Source of the DNA: a virus
IMG/VR virus record: IMGVR_UViG_3300045988_009698
Span: 1-5,134 of that record
Direction: 5' to 3' (one strand)
Length of the DNA stretch: 5,134 nucleotides
Of the stretch, positions 76 through 5,037 are shown piece by piece (position 1 is the first letter of the stretch; every line of letters begins with the position of its first letter). A program made the translations under genes and the position numbers. The notes beneath the pieces are model-generated. The model ran no database searches, was not told the origin of the DNA, and saw only the letters and a program-made list of their open reading frames with translations.

Positions 76-294
76 ATGGATTCTTCTGTTTCTTTTCTGC
101 GCATGAATGAAATGGTTCCTTGTTCTCGTGAGTGTTTTCAAATTTTTGGTGGTTTAAAAAATTACCTTAAACATCTTGCATCTATTATTGATGAAGAGTT
201 TGTGATAATGCTTTACAATGGCTATTTCTATTGCGTTCCCTCGAAATATTCCTATCGTGTTTTTATTCAAGGTGGTGTTTTTGTGAATGAGTAG
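76..294 (+). CDS. Hypothetical 72-aa protein, the first cistron of the operon. It has no assignable microvirus function. Sequence: MDSSVSFLRMNEMVPCSRECFQIFGGLKNYLKHLASIIDEEFVIMLYNGYFYCVPSKYSYRVFIQGGVFVNE.
   Basis: The ORF is in the same frame as the 7..294 track ORF but is started at ATG 76, because a canonical SD (AAGGAG, 63-68) lies 7 nt upstream. The ATG at 7 lies inside or upstream of the predicted -10/TSS. The stop TAG at 292-294 overlaps the VP1 start (ATGAGTAG). Confidence 0.6.
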   Translation: MDSSVSFLRMNEMVPCSRECFQIFGGLKNYLKHLASIIDEEFVIMLYNGYFYCVPSKYSYRVFIQGGVFVNE

Positions 295-1891
295 ACATAG
301 TGTACAACACTTATTCAGTCAAGTTCCGACTGCTCAAATTCCACGTTCTAAATTTAATCGTTCTCATGGTTTAAAAACTACATTTGATAGTGGCTATTTG
401 GTTCCTATCTTTGTGGATGAAGTTCTTCCCGGTGATACATTTACAATGGATTGCACGTTGTTTAGCCGTGTTGCTACTTTAATTAGTCCTATTATGGACA
501 ATATGTATTTGGACACTTTTTGGTTTTATGTTCCGGAGAGATTGCTTTTTGAGCATTTTCAAGCTATGTGTGGCGAGCAGGATAACCCTAGTGATTCCAC
601 TGATTATCTGTTCCCGACTGTAACAGCTCCTGCAACTAAAGGCTTTGAAGTTGGTAGTTTAGCTGATTATTTTGGACTTCCTACCGGTGTACCAAATTTG
701 GAAGTTAGAGCAGAGCCGTTTCGAGCTTACAACCTTATTTATAATGAGTGGTTTCGTGATGAAAATCTTCAAGATTCAGTTCCCTTTACAAAAGCTGATT
801 CCGATGTCATCACTAACTATAATTTATTAAGACGTGGTAAGCGTCATGATTATTTTACTTCCGCTTTGCCTTGGCCGCAAAAAGGCCCTGGTGTTGAATT
901 ACCTATTGGTACTTCTGGTGCTCTATCGCTTACTAATGGTACTTTGATTGGCCCCGGCTATGATGTCGGTGCAGGCTCTTCAAATCAATATCAAGGTCAT
1001 ATGCTTGGCTATGGTACTTCTTTTAATCAAGAGTTGTATCAGACTAGCGTTTATGTTCATGGTAAACAAGCTTCTTCGCCGGTTTCAATTCCTAATGTTT
1101 CTTTAACCGGTAATGCTGACCTTACTAGCTTTTCAGCTGTTACCATTAACCAATTTCGTGAAGCCTTTCAAATTCAGCGTTGGTACGAACGAGCCGCTCG
1201 TGGTGGTACTCGCTACACGGAAATTATCCGTAGCTTCTTTGGTGTAGTTTCTCCGGATGCTCGACTTCAGCGCCCGGAATATCTCGGCGGTTCTAGCAAT
1301 CGTATTGATGTCAATGTTATTCCGCAGACTTCCGGTACTACCGATGTTTCTCCTCAAGCTAATCTTTCCGCTTTTGCTGTTGGAACTAATGGTAGAGGTA
1401 ATGGCTTCAGCAAGAGTTTTACCGAGCATGGTTGGATTATTGGTCTGATTAACGTTAGAGCTGATTTGACTTATCAACAAGGTGTTAATAGGATGTGGAC
1501 ACGTAGTACGAAATTTGATATGTATTGGCCTACGTTCGCCTTTTTGGGCGAACAGGCAGTGCTCAATAAAGAGATTTACGCACAAGGTAATGATGCCGAC
1601 GATCAAGTATTTGGCTATCAAGAAAGATATGCTGAGTATAGATATGCTCCTAGTCAAGTTACAGGTAAATTCCGTAGCACCTATGCACAGAGCCTTGATT
1701 CTTGGCACCTTGCACAGAAGTTTGAAAATTTGCCTAAGTTAAATGCTGAATTTATTGTAGATAATCCACCTATTGACAGAGTTATTGCTGTTCCGTCAGA
1801 GCCTCAATTCCTCTTAGATGCGTGGTTTAACTTATCTTGTGTCCGTCCGATGCCGGTCTATGGTGTGCCTGGCTTAATGGATCACTTTTGA
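287..1891 (+). CDS. VP1: Major capsid protein VP1 of the Gokushovirinae type (phiX174 F-like jelly-roll), 534 aa.
   Basis: The ORF is long and the N-terminal block (..FSQVPTAQIPRSKFNRSHGLKTTFDSGYLVPIFVDEVLPGDTF..) matches what I recall of gokushovirus VP1 proteins, including those of the Chlamydia phages. So do PIMDNMYLDTFWFYVPERL, CGEQDNPSDSTD and the block INQFREAFQIQRWYERAARGGTRYTEIIRSFFGV. A Gly/Ser/Thr-rich variable insertion lies between them. The SD AAGGTGGTG is at 269-277. Confidence 0.92.
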   Translation: MSRHSVQHLFSQVPTAQIPRSKFNRSHGLKTTFDSGYLVPIFVDEVLPGDTFTMDCTLFSRVATLISPIMDNMYLDTFWFYVPERLLFEHFQAMCGEQDNPSDSTDYLFPTVTAPATKGFEVGSLADYFGLPTGVPNLEVRAEPFRAYNLIYNEWFRDENLQDSVPFTKADSDVITNYNLLRRGKRHDYFTSALPWPQKGPGVELPIGTSGALSLTNGTLIGPGYDVGAGSSNQYQGHMLGYGTSFNQELYQTSVYVHGKQASSPVSIPNVSLTGNADLTSFSAVTINQFREAFQIQRWYERAARGGTRYTEIIRSFFGVVSPDARLQRPEYLGGSSNRIDVNVIPQTSGTTDVSPQANLSAFAVGTNGRGNGFSKSFTEHGWIIGLINVRADLTYQQGVNRMWTRSTKFDMYWPTFAFLGEQAVLNKEIYAQGNDADDQVFGYQERYAEYRYAPSQVTGKFRSTYAQSLDSWHLAQKFENLPKLNAEFIVDNPPIDRVIAVPSEPQFLLDAWFNLSCVRPMPVYGVPGLMDHF

Positions 1892-1905
1892 GAAAGGATG
1901 TTAGT

Positions 1906-1986
1906 ATGAATGAAATGCAAATATCTACAATGGCGATTGTCGCTTTATGTATTGTTGTTGTCCTGCGTAGCTTTGGTTTGATTTAA
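1906..1986 (+). CDS. 26-aa hydrophobic micro-ORF (MNEMQISTMAIVALCIVVVLRSFGLI), predicted to be a single transmembrane helix. It is a candidate small membrane or lysis peptide.
   Basis: An SD AAAGGA (1893-1898) lies 7 nt before ATG 1906. The stop TAA at 1984-1986 overlaps the VP2 ATG at 1986 (TAATG). The ORF exactly fills the 94-nt VP1-VP2 gap. Confidence 0.4.
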   Translation: MNEMQISTMAIVALCIVVVLRSFGLI

Positions 1987-2900
1987 TGGGTATGTTTAGC
2001 CTTGGCGGTATTGGTTCCTTTATTACTGATGCCGCTAGTTCCGCGTTTAATGCTCATCTTGGCCGCCAGAACGCCCGTAATAATGCCGCTTTATCTCTTG
2101 CAAATTGGAAATATATGCAGAGCAATGCTCATCAATTAGAAGTGGAGGATTTAAAAAACGCAGGCTTGAATCCTATATTAAGCGCTACTAATAGTCAGAT
2201 TGCCGGTATGGGTTCTGTTTCCGGTCAAAATGGTTCTTCTGATGGTTTAGGTTCTTCAATCCTTGCCGCCGCTTCTGCTAAGGAATTGAAGCGCATGGAT
2301 TTAGAGAATGAATTATTAAAAACTAAAGTTGATGCCGCTAAGAATGGTATTACTGTTAAGAATGATGGGAGCATTGAACGTACCGCCGCTGATGAGCGCT
2401 TTGGTGCTGGTACTGATAATCTTAAGGCTGATACTCGGTTAAAAAATGTTTCGTCTGATTATACGTCCGCTAAACAGTCTAATGAGGCTAAGTTGACACA
2501 AGCCGAATTTGAACGTATTCAGAACGATATACGCATTGCTAATGAGAAGTTACCTTATGAAATTAATAAGATTGTTGCTGATACTGAAAATGCACGTGCA
2601 ACTGCATCTTATATGCTTTCCATGGTTAAACTTAATGCCGCTAAAATTAAAATGACTGATAAGCAACGTGAACAAATTGAAGCTGATTTAAAAGACCCTA
2701 AAAAACTTATGGATAAACAGTTTTGGGAAAATGTTTTTCATTCCAATGAGGAAAAATTCAGATTGCTTCGTGCTTCTTATGAGCGTGGTCTTTCTAATGA
2801 TGTGTATTTTAATTTTTACGCTAATAGTCAAGGCTCCGGCCTTCAAGATGCTAATGACTTGGCCACTATTGGCGCTCGTATTAAATATTTTCTTAAGTGA
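1986..2900 (+). CDS. VP2: VP2 minor capsid / DNA pilot protein, 304 aa.
   Basis: Its position immediately after VP1 fits the gene order. The Gly/Ser-rich N-terminus and the NAGLNPILSA motif are features I recall from gokushovirus VP2 proteins. The long central K/E/A-rich predicted coiled-coil region resembles phiX174 H-type pilot proteins. The start is coupled to the upstream micro-ORF (TAATG). Confidence 0.8.
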   Translation: MGMFSLGGIGSFITDAASSAFNAHLGRQNARNNAALSLANWKYMQSNAHQLEVEDLKNAGLNPILSATNSQIAGMGSVSGQNGSSDGLGSSILAAASAKELKRMDLENELLKTKVDAAKNGITVKNDGSIERTAADERFGAGTDNLKADTRLKNVSSDYTSAKQSNEAKLTQAEFERIQNDIRIANEKLPYEINKIVADTENARATASYMLSMVKLNAAKIKMTDKQREQIEADLKDPKKLMDKQFWENVFHSNEEKFRLLRASYERGLSNDVYFNFYANSQGSGLQDANDLATIGARIKYFLK

Positions 2901-2909
2901 GGTGATATT

Positions 2910-2987
2910 ATGAATAAATGGTTCGCAGGTCTGTTTACTGCTATTGGTGCCTTTGTCGCGTATATTTTGGAGGTGACATTTAAATGA
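2910..2987 (+). CDS. 25-aa hydrophobic micro-ORF (MNKWFAGLFTAIGAFVAYILEVTFK), predicted to be a single transmembrane helix.
   Basis: A strong SD GAGGTGA (2899-2905) lies 4 nt before ATG 2910. The stop TGA at 2985-2987 overlaps the ATG at 2984 of the basic-protein gene (ATGA). The ORF fills the 83-nt VP2-ORF8 gap. Confidence 0.35.
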   Translation: MNKWFAGLFTAIGAFVAYILEVTFK

Positions 2988-3100
2988 AAAGACGTAAGAT
3001 GACTCGTAAAGGTTCTAAGCGTTTGTTTACTGCAACGGCTGATAAAACTAAGTCTATCAATACTGCTCCGCCGCCGATGCGTGGCGGTATCCGGTTATAA
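2984..3100 (+). CDS. VP8: Small, highly basic DNA-binding or packaging protein of 38 aa (MKRRKMTRKGSKRLFTATADKTKSINTAPPPMRGGIRL). It is functionally analogous to phiX174 J and to gokushovirus ORF8/VP8.
   Basis: The ORF is below the length cutoff of the track and was found by reading. It has 11 K/R residues in 38 aa and an N-terminal MKRRKM..RKGSKR stretch typical of microvirus DNA-condensing proteins. An SD GGAGGTGA (2969-2976) lies 7 nt before ATG 2984. The stop TAA at 3098-3100 overlaps the VP4 ATG at 3100 (TAATG). Confidence 0.7.
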   Translation: MKRRKMTRKGSKRLFTATADKTKSINTAPPPMRGGIRL

Positions 3101-4041
3101 TGGTTTGTTACCATCCAATAACAGCGTATCAGTTGCGCCAATGTAAATCTAACGGCAAGAAAGCTATAGTGTTTGGCGCACCGCCTACGCAACCTTTTGA
3201 TGTTGTTAATCTCCCTTGTGGTCAATGTATTGGCTGTCGCTTGGAACGTTCCCGTCAATGGGCAATAAGATGCATGCATGAAGCTAGTTTGCATTCGTGC
3301 AATAGTTTTTTAACGTTAACCTATGACGATGAGCATATTCGTTGGTCTAGTGTTACCGGTGAACAAACTCTTTTCAAGAGAGATTTGCAACTTTTCATAA
3401 AAAGACTTAGAAAATATTTAGAACCTATTAAAGTGAGGTTTTTCGCCTGTGGAGAGTATGGAGATAATACTTTTCGTCCTCATTATCATGTTATATTGTT
3501 TGGTTATGATTTTAGGTCAGACCGACGATTGTATAAAATGTCTAATGCAGGTTTCCCCTATTATATTAGCGATACTCTTAATCGCTTATGGAACCTTGGT
3601 TATTGTCTTGTGGCTGACGTTACATTTGACTCCTGCGCCTATGTTGCTCGCTATGTGACGAAGAAGCTTAACGGCGAAGCCGCGAAATTAAAGTATGAAG
3701 GCATTCAACCGGAGTTCGTTAATATGTCACGTCGTCCCGGTATTGGTGCTGATTGGTTCGCCAAATATAGCGGTGATGTTTATCCTTATGACCGGGTAAT
3801 AATGGTTGATAATGATAAAATTAGGAAATTAAGACCACCGAAATATTACGATAAATTGTATGACGCAATTAATCATGATGAGATGGAAATAATCAAGGAA
3901 AAACGTATTGAAAAAGCAAAACTCCATGAGCAGGAAATATATACGCCTGGTCGATTGGATGCGAAAGAAAAAGTAAAATTAGCTCAAATTAAGAGCTTAG
4001 AAAGAGGTAAAACGGATGAAACTTTACAGTGTTTACGATAA
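3100..4041 (+). CDS. VP4: VP4 rolling-circle replication initiation protein, an HUH endonuclease analogous to phiX174 protein A, 313 aa.
   Basis: RCR motif 1 is FLTLTY (nt 3307-3324). Motif 2 is HYHVILFG (nt 3481-3504). Motif 3, with two catalytic tyrosines, is AYVARYVTKK (Y at 3640-3642 and 3652-3654; compare phiX174 A, YVAKYVNK). An N-terminal Cys cluster C-x2-C-x2-C...C-x-H is also present. Confidence 0.92.
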   Translation: MVCYHPITAYQLRQCKSNGKKAIVFGAPPTQPFDVVNLPCGQCIGCRLERSRQWAIRCMHEASLHSCNSFLTLTYDDEHIRWSSVTGEQTLFKRDLQLFIKRLRKYLEPIKVRFFACGEYGDNTFRPHYHVILFGYDFRSDRRLYKMSNAGFPYYISDTLNRLWNLGYCLVADVTFDSCAYVARYVTKKLNGEAAKLKYEGIQPEFVNMSRRPGIGADWFAKYSGDVYPYDRVIMVDNDKIRKLRPPKYYDKLYDAINHDEMEIIKEKRIEKAKLHEQEIYTPGRLDAKEKVKLAQIKSLERGKTDETLQCLR

Positions 4042-4267
4042 AAAATCTATGATTTATGGTCAAATTATGACTTGTCAAGACGAAATCCAAGCCAAGAGAT
4101 TGTTTGAACGTGCTGTACATGATGACGAAACTATGTTGTTCCATTATCCGGAAGACTTTGTCCTTGTTGAAATCTGTTGTTTTGATGAGCATACCGGCAA
4201 TATTGCAACTATCCCCATGCCTAAACAAATTCTTGAAGCACAAGCCTGCTTTACAATCGACAAATAA
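4016..4267 (+). CDS. VP5: VP5 (ORF5-like) small protein of 83 aa. Its start lies inside the 3' end of VP4, in another frame.
   Basis: An SD GAGGT (4004-4008) lies 7 nt before ATG 4016. The 26-nt overlap with the VP4 end and the size and position match the ORF5 that follows ORF4 in gokushoviruses. The function is assigned by synteny only. Confidence 0.65.
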   Translation: MKLYSVYDKKSMIYGQIMTCQDEIQAKRLFERAVHDDETMLFHYPEDFVLVEICCFDEHTGNIATIPMPKQILEAQACFTIDK

Positions 4268-4334: not shown

Positions 4335-4808
4335 ATGAGATTTAAGACAATTTTTGATACTTATGAAGAAAAGCAAGGTATCATTTTTAAAGAACCAACT
4401 ATGACTATTCAGTCCGAAAAAGATAATTGTGATATTAACGTTATTATGAATCGCTATGCTACCTGTGGCACTCCGCTTCCGGTGCGTACTGATGGTTTGC
4501 AACCTGTTTTTGCTGATGTATCTAAACTTGGTGACTACATGGAAAATTATAATCGTTGTAAGCATGCTGAGGAAGTGTTTAATAGTTTGCCCAGCGCACT
4601 TAGAAAAGAACTTGACAACAACCCGGCTAATCTGTTACCCTTTATTCAGAATGAAGCTAACAGAGAAAGGTGTGTTGAGTATGGACTCATTAATAAATCA
4701 ATTATGGAAGCTTCTAAAGCTCCTGTTGTTGTTAATCCTAATTCCGCTAATCCTGTTTCTAGCGGCTCGCCCGGTGCTGTCGTACATACAAATAGTGATG
4801 TTGAATAG
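4335..4808 (+). CDS. VP3: VP3 internal scaffolding protein, 157 aa.
   Basis: As I recall the Chlamydia-phage VP3 sequence, it carries blocks like KDNCDINVIMNRY and AEEVFNSLPSALRKELDNNPANLLPFIQNEANRERCVEYGLI, both present here. The SD AGGAG (4321-4325) lies 9 nt before the ATG. Confidence 0.85.
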   Translation: MRFKTIFDTYEEKQGIIFKEPTMTIQSEKDNCDINVIMNRYATCGTPLPVRTDGLQPVFADVSKLGDYMENYNRCKHAEEVFNSLPSALRKELDNNPANLLPFIQNEANRERCVEYGLINKSIMEASKAPVVVNPNSANPVSSGSPGAVVHTNSDVE

Positions 4809-4818
4809 CTGATTTCTT

Positions 4819-4845
4819 GACCGCCCTTGTGGCGGTCTTTTTTTT
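4819..4845 (+). terminator. Rho-independent terminator. The stem is GACCGCC (4819-4825) and GGCGGTC (4831-4837), the loop is CTTGT, and a T8 tract follows (4838-4845).
   Basis: A perfect 7-bp GC-rich stem with a 5-nt loop is followed directly by 8 T residues, 11 nt after the VP3 stop codon. Confidence 0.8.
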
Positions 4846-4867
4846 ATTGCGAACATTCGCTGAGGGT

Positions 4868-4904
4868 GTGGGAACAGTTGCCCTCTTGATGTAACTGTTC
4901 CCAC
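4868..4904. repeat. Perfect 12-bp inverted repeat GTGGGAACAGTT (4868-4879) / AACTGTTCCCAC (4893-4904) with a 13-nt loop. It is a candidate ssDNA hairpin, which could serve as a complementary-strand origin or packaging signal.
   Basis: The two arms are exact reverse complements. The repeat lies in the non-coding region downstream of the terminator. Confidence 0.7.
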
Positions 4905-4930
4905 TGACACCATTCGTCATTCTGACGATT

Positions 4931-5004: not shown

Positions 5005-5022
5005 ATAGTTGATATTATGTTA
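5005..5022 (+). other. Origin-like sequence TAGTTGATATTATGTTAA. The core TTGATATTA is identical to the core of the phiX174 (+) origin nick site (CAACTTG^ATATTAATAAC).
   Basis: This is a 9/9-nt match to the phiX174 ori core, as I recall it. It lies in the only large intergenic region and overlaps the -35 hexamer. It is a candidate VP4 nicking site, with the putative G^A nick between 5011 and 5012. Confidence 0.35.
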
Positions 5023-5037
5023 AATTTCTGTTAGAAT
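5009..5037 (+). promoter_or_regulatory. Sigma70-type promoter: -35 TTGATA (5009-5014), 17-nt spacer, -10 TAGAAT (5032-5037, wrapping onto circular positions 1-2). An A/T-rich UP-like tract lies upstream (about 4985-5008). The predicted TSS is near circular position 9-10.
   Basis: Each hexamer matches consensus at 5/6 positions and the spacer is the optimal 17 nt. The promoter sits in the only sizeable non-coding region, immediately upstream of the first cistron. Confidence 0.55.

What the first reader, a model, noticed from the sequence alone, without database searches (positions are those of the whole stretch)
1906..1986. SD-equipped 26-aa transmembrane micro-ORF filling the VP1-VP2 gap and coupled to VP2 by TAATG
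The sequence MNEMQISTMAIVALCIVVVLRSFGLI is essentially one hydrophobic helix with a positive residue near its C-terminus. It has its own SD (AAAGGA, 7-nt spacing). Its stop codon overlaps the VP2 initiation codon, and VP2 has no SD of its own. Either the peptide is a real membrane micropeptide, or its translation exists to deliver ribosomes to VP2. Gokushoviruses lack a phiX174 E-type lysis gene, and their lysis mechanism is largely unresolved. A single-helix peptide is the classic form of a single-gene lysis inhibitor of cell-wall synthesis.
Basis: partly seen in the sequence, partly recalled or inferred. Interest (0 to 1): 0.55.

Follow-up and report, generated by a model that had tools for sequence, protein, structure and literature searches.

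The report
Conserved 26-residue membrane micro-gene before VP2
A tiny unannotated gene for a 26-residue membrane peptide sits between the capsid and pilot genes of a clade of gut gokushoviruses; it is as strongly conserved as the capsid, feeds ribosomes to the pilot gene, and is a testable candidate for the missing lysis gene of this phage group.

Summary

The window is a circular 5,035-nt gokushovirus genome. The ORF is a real gene rather than a chance hydrophobic ORF.
- All 32 clade genomes and prophages retrieved keep it at 26 codons (25 in the most distant).
- All have an SD. The start is TTG in 30 of 32.
- dN/dS is 0.14, and its amino-acid divergence equals that of the capsid C-terminus.
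- The +1 frame and RNA-structure alternatives fail.

Its stop always lies within 9 nt of the VP2 start. In 14 genomes, including this one, VP2 has no SD, so coupling is likely. In the other 18 VP2 has its own SD, so coupling cannot be the sole role.

No database or GenBank record annotates the gene. Integrated relatives sit in Phascolarctobacterium (a diderm Firmicute) contigs.

The function is unproven. It meets the published operational criteria for a single-gene-lysis candidate, but a second hydrophobic micro-ORF (2910-2987) and an overprinted ORF in VP4 are rival candidates.

Unrelated small hydrophobic ORFs occupy the same slot in about a fifth of distant gokushoviruses.

The parts
1893..1898 (+). 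Shine-Dalgarno sequence (AAAGGA) of the micro-ORF, 7 nt before its ATG
   Evidence: Read directly. Every relative has GGAGG, GAGGTG or AAGGAG 6-9 nt before the start codon.
1906..1986 (+). Micro-ORF A: 26 codons plus TAA, encoding MNEMQISTMAIVALCIVVVLRSFGLI. Hydrophobic core I6-L20, R21, hydrophobic tail SFGLI.
   Evidence: Intact in 32 of 32 clade genomes. dN/dS 0.14 and variable sites 13/5/22 by codon position. Kyte-Doolittle 15-residue maximum 2.96. Simple Hessa-scale sum -2.79 kcal/mol for I6-L20.
1984..1988 (+). TAATG: the micro-ORF stop overlaps the VP2 start codon (a termination-reinitiation junction)
   Evidence: No SD in the 23 nt before the VP2 ATG. The same TAATG occurs in 7 relatives, ATGA in 5 and TAG-T-ATG in L115.
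1986..2900 (+). VP2 (DNA pilot protein, 304 aa), the downstream gene fed by the micro-ORF
   Evidence: PHROGs phrog_8693 'pilot protein for DNA ejection', E 1.3e-33. Annotated VP2 in relatives.
287..1891 (+). VP1 major capsid protein (534 aa), the upstream neighbour. Its stop lies 14 nt before the micro-ORF.
   Evidence: Pfam Phage_F, E 9.6e-191.
2910..2987 (+). Micro-ORF B: a second small hydrophobic ORF (25 aa, MNKWFAGLFTAIGAFVAYILEVTFK; SD GAGGTG; ATGA overlap with the basic 38-aa VP8-like gene). A possible partner or rival candidate.
   Evidence: Conserved after VP2 in 15 relatives, including L115. Less hydrophobic than A.

Best explanation
Micro-ORF A is a genuine, translated gene for a 26-residue single-pass membrane peptide. 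It belongs to a clade of gut gokushoviruses whose integrated relatives lie in Phascolarctobacterium genomes.

Proposed mechanism:
1. The gene is transcribed as part of the single long operon that runs from the promoter-like site near 5009-5037 to the terminator at 4819-4847.
2. Ribosomes start at a deliberately weak site. The start codon is TTG in 30 of 32 genomes; here it is ATG behind a weaker SD.
3. Ribosomes terminate on top of the VP2 start codon and re-initiate there. In this genome the micro-ORF therefore also sets the translation rate of the pilot protein VP2.
4. The peptide has a function of its own in the host inner membrane. It probably inserts N-out/C-in, with R21 at the cytoplasmic face.

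My preferred role is host lysis. The peptide would act either as a minimal 'protein antibiotic' that blocks a membrane step of cell-wall precursor supply, or as a holin-like membrane-damaging peptide that accumulates with late gene expression.

What is shown: the anatomy, the conservation, the selection on the amino-acid sequence, and the juxtaposition with VP2. What is inferred: translation, membrane insertion, topology, coupling and the lysis role.

My probabilities: real protein-coding gene about 0.9; VP2 translation in this genome depends on it about 0.7; lysis role about 0.35.
For: Anatomy.

Conservation:
- The ORF is 26 codons in all 31 members of the close clade, this window included, and 25 codons in the distant prophage L115.
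- The family profile hits L115 at E 5e-11, sharing the C-terminus VVL[RK]SF.LI.

Selection:
- dN/dS is 0.14. pN is 0.079, the same as the last 100 codons of VP1 (0.086). Variable sites fall 13/5/22 by codon position.
- On the smaller set the chi-square p is 0.0005, and the +1 frame gives dN/dS 0.52.
- The junction RNA is not structured (z +1.05).

Expression signals:
- An SD is present in all genomes and a TTG start in 30 of 32.
- The stop lies 0-9 nt from the VP2 ATG in all. 14 genomes have no SD for VP2.
- A second TAATG junction without an SD (VP8 to VP4, position 3100) shows that this genome uses coupling routinely.

Consistency with lysis:
- No muralytic or other lysis domain occurs in any of the nine ORFs.
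- No gokushovirus lysis gene is known (PMC7062461).
- The ORF meets all three published screening criteria for single-gene-lysis candidates: at least 25 codons, an SD and a transmembrane domain (PMC7693330).
- A conserved weak start fits a dose-limited toxic product.
- The likely host is a diderm.
- In distant gokushoviruses the same slot holds unrelated small hydrophobic ORFs: 28 of 51 long gaps against 4.9 expected. In L037 and L059 such an ORF sits beside one with the H-x6-D ... H-x-H signature and sub-threshold hits to Peptidase_M15_4, VanY and hedgehog N-domain.
Against: - There is no direct evidence of translation, membrane insertion or any phenotype.
- Hydrophobic ORFs arise easily in this T-rich genome.
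- The hydrophobic core is only 15 residues, which is short for a membrane span.
- In the published screen only 33 of 293 candidates were functional, and 178 transmembrane-bearing candidates did nothing.
- The family is confined to one clade. 82 of 145 distant gokushoviruses have no room for any ORF at this junction. Enterobacterial gokushovirus-like prophages, phiMH2K and Chp2 have no ORF there either.
- The peptide is as conserved as the capsid, whereas known single-gene lysis proteins diverge fast.
- Micro-ORF B and an overprinted two-helix ORF in VP4 (3449-3658) are equally unassigned candidates.
- In coupled genomes the peptide must be made at least as often as VP2, which is a lot for an enzyme inhibitor.
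Confidence: 0.35

Rival explanations
1. VP2-linked accessory. The peptide works with the pilot protein. It could act as a membrane tether or chaperone that controls where and when VP2 is made or inserted: its nascent hydrophobic helix would bring the ribosome-mRNA complex to the membrane just before VP2 is translated. Alternatively it could be a partner during assembly or DNA delivery.
For: - Synteny is strict. The micro-ORF stop lies 0-9 nt from the VP2 start in 32 of 32 genomes, through four different junction designs.
- Unrelated small hydrophobic ORFs in distant gokushoviruses also end on or next to the VP2 start, for example L022, L026 and L065.
- VP2-like proteins are reported to have N-terminal transmembrane segments (PMC3394797).
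Against: - In these compact genomes any gene placed between VP1 and VP2 would abut VP2. Micro-ORF B abuts VP8 in the same way.
- There is no co-variation. The window's peptide is about 90% identical to that of L003 and L005 (88.5% by tblastn), while their VP2 proteins are about 33% identical.
- A conserved TTG start is odd for a stoichiometric partner.
- More than half of gokushoviruses manage VP2 without any such ORF.
Confidence: 0.2
2. Superinfection exclusion or another host-membrane modulator. The small inner-membrane peptide blocks DNA entry by related phages, or alters a host membrane protein, to the benefit of infected or lysogenic cells.
For: - Close relatives are integrated prophages flanked by bacterial genes (HflX, methionine gamma-lyase-like, thioesterase and LexA in L115; a sodium:alanine symporter in L102).
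- Gokushovirus carriage confers superinfection immunity by an unknown mechanism in E. coli (PMC7062461).
- Strong sequence conservation suits a specific protein-protein contact.
Against: - The gene sits in the middle of the structural operon. No convincing promoter of its own was found (only a 9/12 match at 1702-1729, within background), so expression from a repressed prophage is not evident.
- The E. coli gokushovirus-like prophage L104 has no ORF at this junction.
Confidence: 0.15
3. Pure leader ORF. Only the act of translating it matters, to load ribosomes onto VP2 or to tune VP2 output, and the peptide is discarded.
For: - TAATG, ATGA or TAG-T-ATG junctions with no SD for VP2 occur in 14 of 32 genomes.
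- A weak TTG start would suit the low VP2 dosage needed relative to the capsid protein.
Against: - The amino-acid sequence is under purifying selection as strong as on the capsid (dN/dS 0.14). A sequence-independent leader would not show this.
- 18 genomes give VP2 its own SD yet keep the ORF intact.
- 82 of 145 distant gokushoviruses simply place VP2 within 20 nt of VP1.
Confidence: 0.1
4. Chance ORF or non-coding element. The gap is a spacer or a DNA/RNA signal that merely happens to be open.
For: - Hydrophobic off-frame ORFs are common in this genome.
- Other gokushoviruses carry hairpins rather than ORFs in this gap: phiMH2K, Chp2, L074 and L076.
- Synonymous divergence is somewhat lower than in VP1 (0.41 against 0.62).
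Against: - The ORF is intact in 32 of 32 genomes at fixed length, with a third-position-biased substitution pattern.
- An SD and a start codon are conserved.
- The region folds no better than shuffled sequence.
- A homologue is recognisable at 32% identity in L115, where the DNA is no longer alignable.
Confidence: 0.03

Closest known systems
phiX174 lysis protein E (Bullavirinae; inhibits MraY)
   Same: A small membrane protein of a microvirus, whose lytic activity resides in a single N-terminal transmembrane helix. It is expressed at low level from a weak translation start. No muralytic enzyme is present in the genome.
   Different: E is 91 aa, is overprinted inside scaffold gene D and has a basic C-terminal domain. 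The present peptide is 26 aa, stands alone between VP1 and VP2 and has no soluble domain. It shows no sequence similarity to E (no Pfam hit). Its function is untested.
LysM / Sgl-M of levivirus M (37 aa; blocks the lipid II flippase MurJ) and other single-gene lysis proteins of ssRNA phages
   Same: Comparable size and plan: a short polar N-terminus followed by one transmembrane helix. It satisfies the same operational search criteria of at least 25 codons, an SD and a transmembrane domain (PMC7693330; PMC12506998, listed).
   Different: This is a DNA phage and the sequence is unrelated. It would be about 11 residues shorter than LysM. It is far more conserved among relatives than single-gene lysis proteins usually are. 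No lytic phenotype has been shown.
orfN of Bdellovibrio gokushovirus phiMH2K (AF306496, 3997-4326)
   Same: A small hydrophobic ORF of a gokushovirus. Its depositors annotated it 'similar to phiX174 E and K proteins', meaning a suspected membrane or lysis function.
   Different: orfN is 109 aa and is overprinted on the Vp4 gene. It is unrelated in sequence. The VP1-VP2 gap of phiMH2K holds a GC-rich hairpin and no ORF.
Translationally coupled gene pairs with overlapping stop and start (UAAUG / AUGA), e.g. gene V to gene VII of filamentous phage f1 (from my own knowledge)
   Same: The downstream gene lacks an SD and starts on the upstream stop codon. In f1 one partner is also a roughly 33-residue hydrophobic membrane peptide.
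   Different: In f1 the tiny hydrophobic gene is the downstream, dependent one, and its product is a virion component. Here the tiny gene is upstream. Coupling is replaced by an independent SD in 18 of 32 relatives.
   Same: They share the position, orientation, small size and hydrophobic segment, and they end on or next to the VP2 start.
   Different: There is no detectable sequence relationship. They are 30-60 aa rather than 26. None has a known function.

Membership tests
Single-gene lysis (Sgl) candidate, operational criteria of Chamakura et al. 2020 (PMC7693330) | ORF of at least 25 codons with an ATG, GTG or TTG start | tested here: met
   26 codons. ATG here and TTG in 30 of 32 relatives.
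Single-gene lysis (Sgl) candidate, operational criteria of Chamakura et al. 2020 (PMC7693330) | Legitimate Shine-Dalgarno sequence | tested here: met
   AAAGGA 7 nt upstream here. GGAGG, GAGGTG or AAGGAG 6-9 nt upstream in all relatives.
Single-gene lysis (Sgl) candidate, operational criteria of Chamakura et al. 2020 (PMC7693330) | Predicted transmembrane domain | tested here: inconclusive
   The hydropathy is strong: Kyte-Doolittle 15-residue mean 2.96 and simple Hessa sum -2.79 kcal/mol for I6-L20. But the uninterrupted core is only 15 residues, and no dedicated transmembrane predictor was available.
Single-gene lysis (Sgl) candidate, operational criteria of Chamakura et al. 2020 (PMC7693330) | Lysis or growth inhibition on induced expression | not testable with these tools
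   This needs cloning and induction. In the published screen only 33 of 293 candidates were functional.
phiX174 E-type lysis protein | Sequence homology to protein E | tested here: not met
   No Pfam, PHROGs or NCBIfam hit for the peptide, even at E up to 10 in NCBIfam.
phiX174 E-type lysis protein | Gene overprinted within the scaffolding gene, and a transmembrane helix followed by a basic C-terminal domain | tested here: not met
   The ORF is free-standing between VP1 and VP2. The peptide ends 5 residues after R21.
Holin of a holin-endolysin system | A muralytic enzyme gene in the same genome | tested here: not met
   None of the nine ORFs hits a peptidase, amidase or lysozyme family. L037 and L059 do carry a possible M15-like ORF in this slot, but only at sub-threshold scores.
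Holin of a holin-endolysin system | Transmembrane domain(s) plus a charged, hydrophilic C-terminal tail | tested here: not met
   There is one hydrophobic helix. The C-terminus is RSFGLI, with a single charge and no hydrophilic tail.
Translationally coupled upstream ORF (termination-reinitiation) | The upstream stop overlaps or abuts the downstream start | tested here: met
   TAATG at 1984-1988. The distance is 0-9 nt in 32 of 32 relatives.
Translationally coupled upstream ORF (termination-reinitiation) | The downstream gene has no ribosome-binding site of its own | tested here: met
   No SD before VP2 in the window or in 13 relatives. This is not met in the 18 relatives that have TGA-GGTGTT-nnn-ATG.
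Translationally coupled upstream ORF (termination-reinitiation) | Downstream translation falls when upstream translation is abolished | not testable with these tools
   This needs start-codon or nonsense mutants with a VP2 readout.

The most novel reading that the evidence does not exclude
The 26-residue peptide is the lysis protein of this gokushovirus clade. It would be the first lysis gene identified in the Gokushovirinae and the smallest phage 'protein antibiotic' known, acting on a membrane step of envelope synthesis in diderm Firmicutes. The VP1-VP2 junction would then be the general locus where gokushoviruses repeatedly evolve or acquire small membrane lysis genes.
Probability: 0.2. Interest if true: 0.8.

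Novelty: new member of a known kind. Interest (0 to 1): 0.55.

Why it matters
How gokushoviruses leave their hosts is unknown: they lack protein E, and most have no peptidase (PMC7062461, PMC3394797). They are the largest subfamily of microviruses, making up roughly half of the microviral genomes in one curated survey (PMC9239249).

This work turns a hunch into a defined object:
- an unannotated gene family with clear boundaries, start and stop;
- conserved residues: M1, V18, L20, L25 and I26 are invariant, and N2, T8, A10, V12, L14, I16, R21 (K in L115) and F23 nearly so;
- a probable host genus;
- two named rival candidates in the same genome.

If the peptide is lytic it would be a minimal template for a membrane-targeted antibacterial against Negativicutes.

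Even if it is not lytic, two points stand. Standard gene callers and all 13 GenBank records miss a gene that is as constrained as the capsid. And the essential pilot gene of some of these phages is probably translated only through it.

Tried and rejected
1. Searches with the bare peptide. The search for related loci and the search for homologous proteins refuse a 26-residue query. The 49-residue upstream-extended form, which a gene caller might emit, finds nothing among 5.8 billion proteins.

2. Family libraries. Pfam, PHROGs and NCBIfam give no hit.

3. The +1-frame ORF (1910-1981, 23 aa, ATG) as the real gene. Rejected: the variable sites would fall on its second codon position, its dN/dS is 0.52, and such an open +1 frame arises in 33-37% of random synonymous re-encodings of the peptide.

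4. Structured RNA or an attenuator in the gap. Rejected for this clade (z +1.05). It does apply to phiMH2K, Chp2, L074 and L076.

5. An N-terminal extension of VP2 by read-through or frameshift. Rejected because the frame relation between the micro-ORF and VP2 differs among the junction types. It is in frame with the 9-nt spacer and out of frame with TAATG, ATGA and TAG-T-ATG.

6. Upstream in-frame starts (TTG 1837, TTG 1888, or GTG inside the SD of some relatives). Rejected because they lack an SD or lie within VP1.

7. Wider homologues.
- An nhmmer DNA profile found nothing in the 69 distant loci then in hand.
- A protein HMM found nothing in about 160 distant gokushovirus loci apart from L115.
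- A looser DNA pattern in IMG/VR added one clade member and three chance hits. I therefore did not spend the metagenome scan.

8. Relatives of L115 in IMG/VR. None is closer than 58% VP1 identity.

9. The L037/L059 junction ORF as an M15 peptidase. Only sub-threshold hits were obtained.

10. Which frame of the 55-60-aa 'MD..K' junction family is coding. The test was indicative only: 0.34 against 0.60, on partly different sequence sets.

Full report
**What the window is.** The 5,134 bases are one circular genome of 5,035 nt. The first 99 bases are repeated at the end. All nine plausible genes lie on the + strand:
- an unknown 72-aa ORF (76-294);
- VP1 (287-1891);
- the micro-ORF under study (1906-1986);
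- VP2 (1986-2900);
- a second small hydrophobic ORF (2910-2987);
- a basic 38-aa VP8-like gene (2984-3100);
- VP4 (3100-4041), VP5 (4016-4267) and VP3 (4335-4808).

A strong terminator-like hairpin follows VP3 (4819-4847). The best + strand promoter-like site (5009-5037) precedes the first ORF. The genes therefore look like one operon. The nearest GenBank genomes are pig and monkey faecal gokushoviruses at about 83% nucleotide identity.

**Checking the observation.**
- AAAGGA at 1893-1898;
- ATG at 1906;
- 26 codons reading MNEMQISTMAIVALCIVVVLRSFGLI;
- TAA at 1984-1986, sharing its last A with the VP2 ATG.

The 23 nt before VP2 contain no SD. Six of the other seven genes have AGGAG/GAGGT-type sites, and VP1 has a weaker, more distant GGTGG. 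The only other gene without one, VP4, also starts on a TAATG.

Hydrophobicity by itself is weak evidence here. The coding strand is 33% T, and several off-frame ORFs are about as hydrophobic. The case rests on comparison with relatives.

**Conservation and selection.** I collected three sets of relatives:
- 13 GenBank genomes that carry the ORF (the nine nearest, L001-L009, plus L098-L101), 16 IMG/VR genomes (L010-L020, L094-L097, L208), and a prophage in a Phascolarctobacterium MAG contig (L102);
- a more distant integrated prophage in a 112-kb Phascolarctobacterium contig (L115, VP1 59% identical);
- about 160 distant gokushovirus loci.

Every one of the 30 close relatives and L115 has the ORF in the same place. 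It is 26 codons everywhere except L115, where it is 25. A profile of the family finds L115 at E 5e-11. The shared C-terminus is VVL[RK]SF.LI, although overall identity is only 32% and the DNA no longer aligns.

Across 26 distinct DNA sequences, variable sites fall 13, 5 and 22 on codon positions 1, 2 and 3. Nei-Gojobori pS is 0.41, pN is 0.079 and dN/dS is 0.14. The last 100 codons of the capsid gene in the same genomes give pN 0.086. The peptide is thus as constrained at the amino-acid level as the most conserved part of the capsid, while the VP2 next to it varies from 33 to 65% identity.

The ATG-initiated +1-frame ORF (1910-1981) is open in all members but is a by-product. Its dN/dS is 0.52, the variable sites would sit on its second codon position, and a third of random synonymous re-encodings keep it open. 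The junction RNA folds no better than shuffled sequence (z +1.05).

**Translation signals.** All members have GGAGG, GAGGTG or AAGGAG 6-9 nt before the start. The start codon is TTG in 30 of 32 and ATG only in this window and L018. In this window every other gene starts with ATG. A weak start kept on one gene suggests selection for low output. The window pairs its ATG with a weaker SD.

At the 3' end there are four designs:
- TGA followed by 9 nt and the VP2 ATG, with the stop embedded in a GAGGT SD for VP2 (18 genomes);
- TAATG (8 genomes, including the window);
- ATGA (5 genomes);
- TAG-T-ATG (L115).

In the last three designs VP2 has no SD of its own. Translation of an essential virion protein then very probably depends on ribosomes that have just finished the micro-ORF. 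This is indirect evidence that the micro-ORF is translated. Because 18 genomes give VP2 an independent SD yet retain the ORF under the same selection, ribosome delivery cannot be its only purpose. The frame relation to VP2 differs among the designs, which excludes a conserved read-through or frameshift fusion.

**The peptide.** The N-terminus is short, polar and net-acidic (M-N-[ED]-x-Q/H). The hydrophobic core is 15 residues (I6-L20). A basic residue at position 21 is invariant in kind (R, or K in L115). A hydrophobic tail with conserved F23, L25 and I26 ends the chain.

The core scores 2.96 on a 15-residue Kyte-Doolittle window, and -2.79 kcal/mol on a simple Hessa sum. With the tail it could span a bilayer as a 21-residue helix. 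By the positive-inside rule the likely orientation is N-out/C-in.

**Host.** The VP1 scan of bacterial genomes found the same micro-ORF family in two Phascolarctobacterium contigs. Both prophages are flanked by ordinary bacterial genes:
- in L115: HflX, a methionine gamma-lyase-like enzyme, a thioesterase and LexA;
- in L102: a sodium:alanine symporter.

Phascolarctobacterium belongs to the Negativicutes, which are diderm Firmicutes (my own knowledge). Reliance on SD sequences also argues against a Bacteroidota host.

**Wider context.** The sequence family stops at this clade, but the position is reused.

Among 145 distant gokushovirus loci, the VP1-VP2 gap is 20 nt or less in 82, and 75-300 nt in 51. 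Of those 51, 28 hold a hydrophobic ORF of at least 20 codons, against 4.9 expected from shuffled gaps. These ORFs form several unrelated families:
- a 55-60-aa MD..K...RKY.AP..IGALVVWL group. A second overlapping frame is also open. The first frame has the lower dN/dS, 0.34 against 0.60, on partly different sequence sets;
- a roughly 35-aa MEWMSLVVLILN...NRKR group;
- a roughly 30-aa NW.TI group, found both alone and next to an ORF with the H-x6-D/H-x-H signature. That ORF has only sub-threshold hits to M15/VanY/hedgehog-type zinc peptidases;
- a lipobox-bearing ORF (L126).

Many of these ORFs end on or beside the VP2 start.

Cultured gokushoviruses differ. phiMH2K and Chp2 carry hairpins in the gap. 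phiMH2K has an overprinted orfN annotated as E/K-like. An enterobacterial gokushovirus-like prophage has a 40-nt gap.

**Known or not.**
- None of the 13 GenBank records that contain the ORF annotates it; four run a 'VP2' feature up to its last base.
- No family library knows it.
- The protein collection holds no version of it.
- Eight full-text searches found no description of a small membrane ORF at this junction.
- The papers retrieved state that gokushoviruses lack a recognised lysis gene apart from occasional acquired peptidases.

**What it most likely does.** I am confident (about 0.9) that this is a translated gene for a small membrane peptide. I am fairly confident (about 0.7) that in this genome it is the entry point for VP2 translation.

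For the peptide's own role I favour lysis (about 0.35), for these reasons:
- the genome has no other recognisable lysis function;
- the ORF passes the three published screening criteria for single-gene lysis candidates;
- its start is kept weak;
- the host is a diderm;
- the slot is repeatedly occupied by small membrane ORFs, sometimes beside a possible peptidase.

Against lysis:
- most ORFs that pass that screen are inert;
- the peptide is unusually well conserved for a lysis protein;
- more than half of gokushoviruses have nothing at this position;
- micro-ORF B and the overprinted two-helix ORF in VP4 (open in 21 of the 27 relatives compared) are equally unassigned.

The rivals are a VP2-linked membrane-targeting or chaperone role (0.2), superinfection exclusion or another host-membrane effect (0.15), a pure leader (0.1, disfavoured by the selection on sequence) and chance (0.03).

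**Verdict.** The object is a new, unannotated family of a known kind (small phage membrane peptides and coupled upstream ORFs). It is of moderate to good interest because it gives the open question of gokushovirus lysis a precise, cheap experiment.

Noticed in passing
window 2910-2987 (+): A second small hydrophobic ORF (25 aa, MNKWFAGLFTAIGAFVAYILEVTFK; SD GAGGTG; ATG start) lies between VP2 and the basic VP8-like gene, with an ATGA overlap onto the latter. It is conserved as MNKWFSALCVAIGAAATYLGQF.FGK in 14 relatives. An analogue (MDKEKLQNALLAALAGFVGALFGINIPINF) occurs in L115. In relatives its stop is embedded in the SD of the next gene, the same design as micro-ORF A to VP2.
   Followed up: partly
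window 3449-3658 (+), inside VP4: An overprinted 69-codon ORF (GTG; ATG at 3458) with two hydrophobic stretches. It stays open in 21 of the 27 relatives compared. It is truncated in L010 and L014, altered by indels in L011 and L018, and broken in L101 and L115. Its position recalls orfN of phiMH2K, annotated 'similar to phiX174 E and K'. It is a rival lysis-gene candidate.
   Followed up: partly
window 4860-4911 (+), non-coding region after VP3: A roughly 50-nt element that is 90-98% identical in otherwise unrelated gokushoviruses (Dulem virus 198 and 172, KT264773, MG945531, Kummerowia gokushovirus). It folds as a 14-bp DNA hairpin (z -3.8). The loop contains CTTGAT, which resembles the phiX174 origin core CTTG/ATA as I recall it. 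It is a candidate replication origin.
   Followed up: partly
window 3098-3102 (+): A second TAATG junction: the VP8-like stop overlaps the VP4 start, and VP4 has no SD. Termination-reinitiation coupling seems to be used more than once in this genome.
   Followed up: no
window 76-294 (+): A 72-aa ORF with a strong SD (AAGGAG), overlapping the VP1 start by 8 nt. It has no hit in Pfam, PHROGs or NCBIfam. An ORF in the same position is annotated as a hypothetical protein in MG945506.
   Followed up: no
L102 (JBJDXD010000014.1) and L115 (UQXH01000004.1, locus 3998-8597): Gokushovirus prophages of this lineage are integrated in Phascolarctobacterium MAG contigs and flanked by bacterial genes. In L115 the prophage lies directly beside a LexA gene. 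This gives a probable host genus, and evidence of lysogeny, for a gut gokushovirus clade outside the Enterobacteriaceae.
   Followed up: partly
L026, L029, L035, L036, L038, L041, L042, L049, L050, L055, L057, L058, L060, L063, L065, L068, L070, L086, L106: VP1-VP2 gaps: Environmental gokushoviruses carry a 55-60-aa one-helix ORF (MD..K...R[KR]...P...G.LV.WL.AN...W..VC..A..L.I.V.EC) that ends on the VP2 start. A second, fully overlapping hydrophobic frame (MLWI...) is also open in nearly all of them. The first frame has the lower dN/dS, 0.34 against 0.60, on partly different sequence sets. This may be a dual-coding region.
   Followed up: partly
L037 2291-2617 and L059 2477-2800 (between VP1 and VP2): ORFs of 107-108 aa carrying an H-x6-D ... 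H-x-H signature. They have only sub-threshold hits to Peptidase_M15_4, VanY and the hedgehog N-domain, all LAS-type zinc peptidases. Each is followed by a roughly 30-aa hydrophobic ORF just before VP2. The arrangement resembles an endolysin plus holin.
   Followed up: partly
L074 2878-2995, L076 2232-2351 (also L077, L080, L087): A roughly 117-nt VP1-VP2 gap with no ORF but a long nested GC-rich hairpin (ACGGGTTATT...AATAACCCGT enclosing CCCGC...GCGGG). In this lineage a structured element occupies the slot instead of a micro-ORF.
   Followed up: no
L126 (VP1-VP2 gap, 282 nt): A 76-aa ORF with a lipoprotein-like signal and lipobox (MMREKVKVFPIIVLLACCLFGCG...) plus a C-terminal hydrophobic segment and a KKKKG tail. 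It sits in the same slot of a distant gokushovirus.
   Followed up: no
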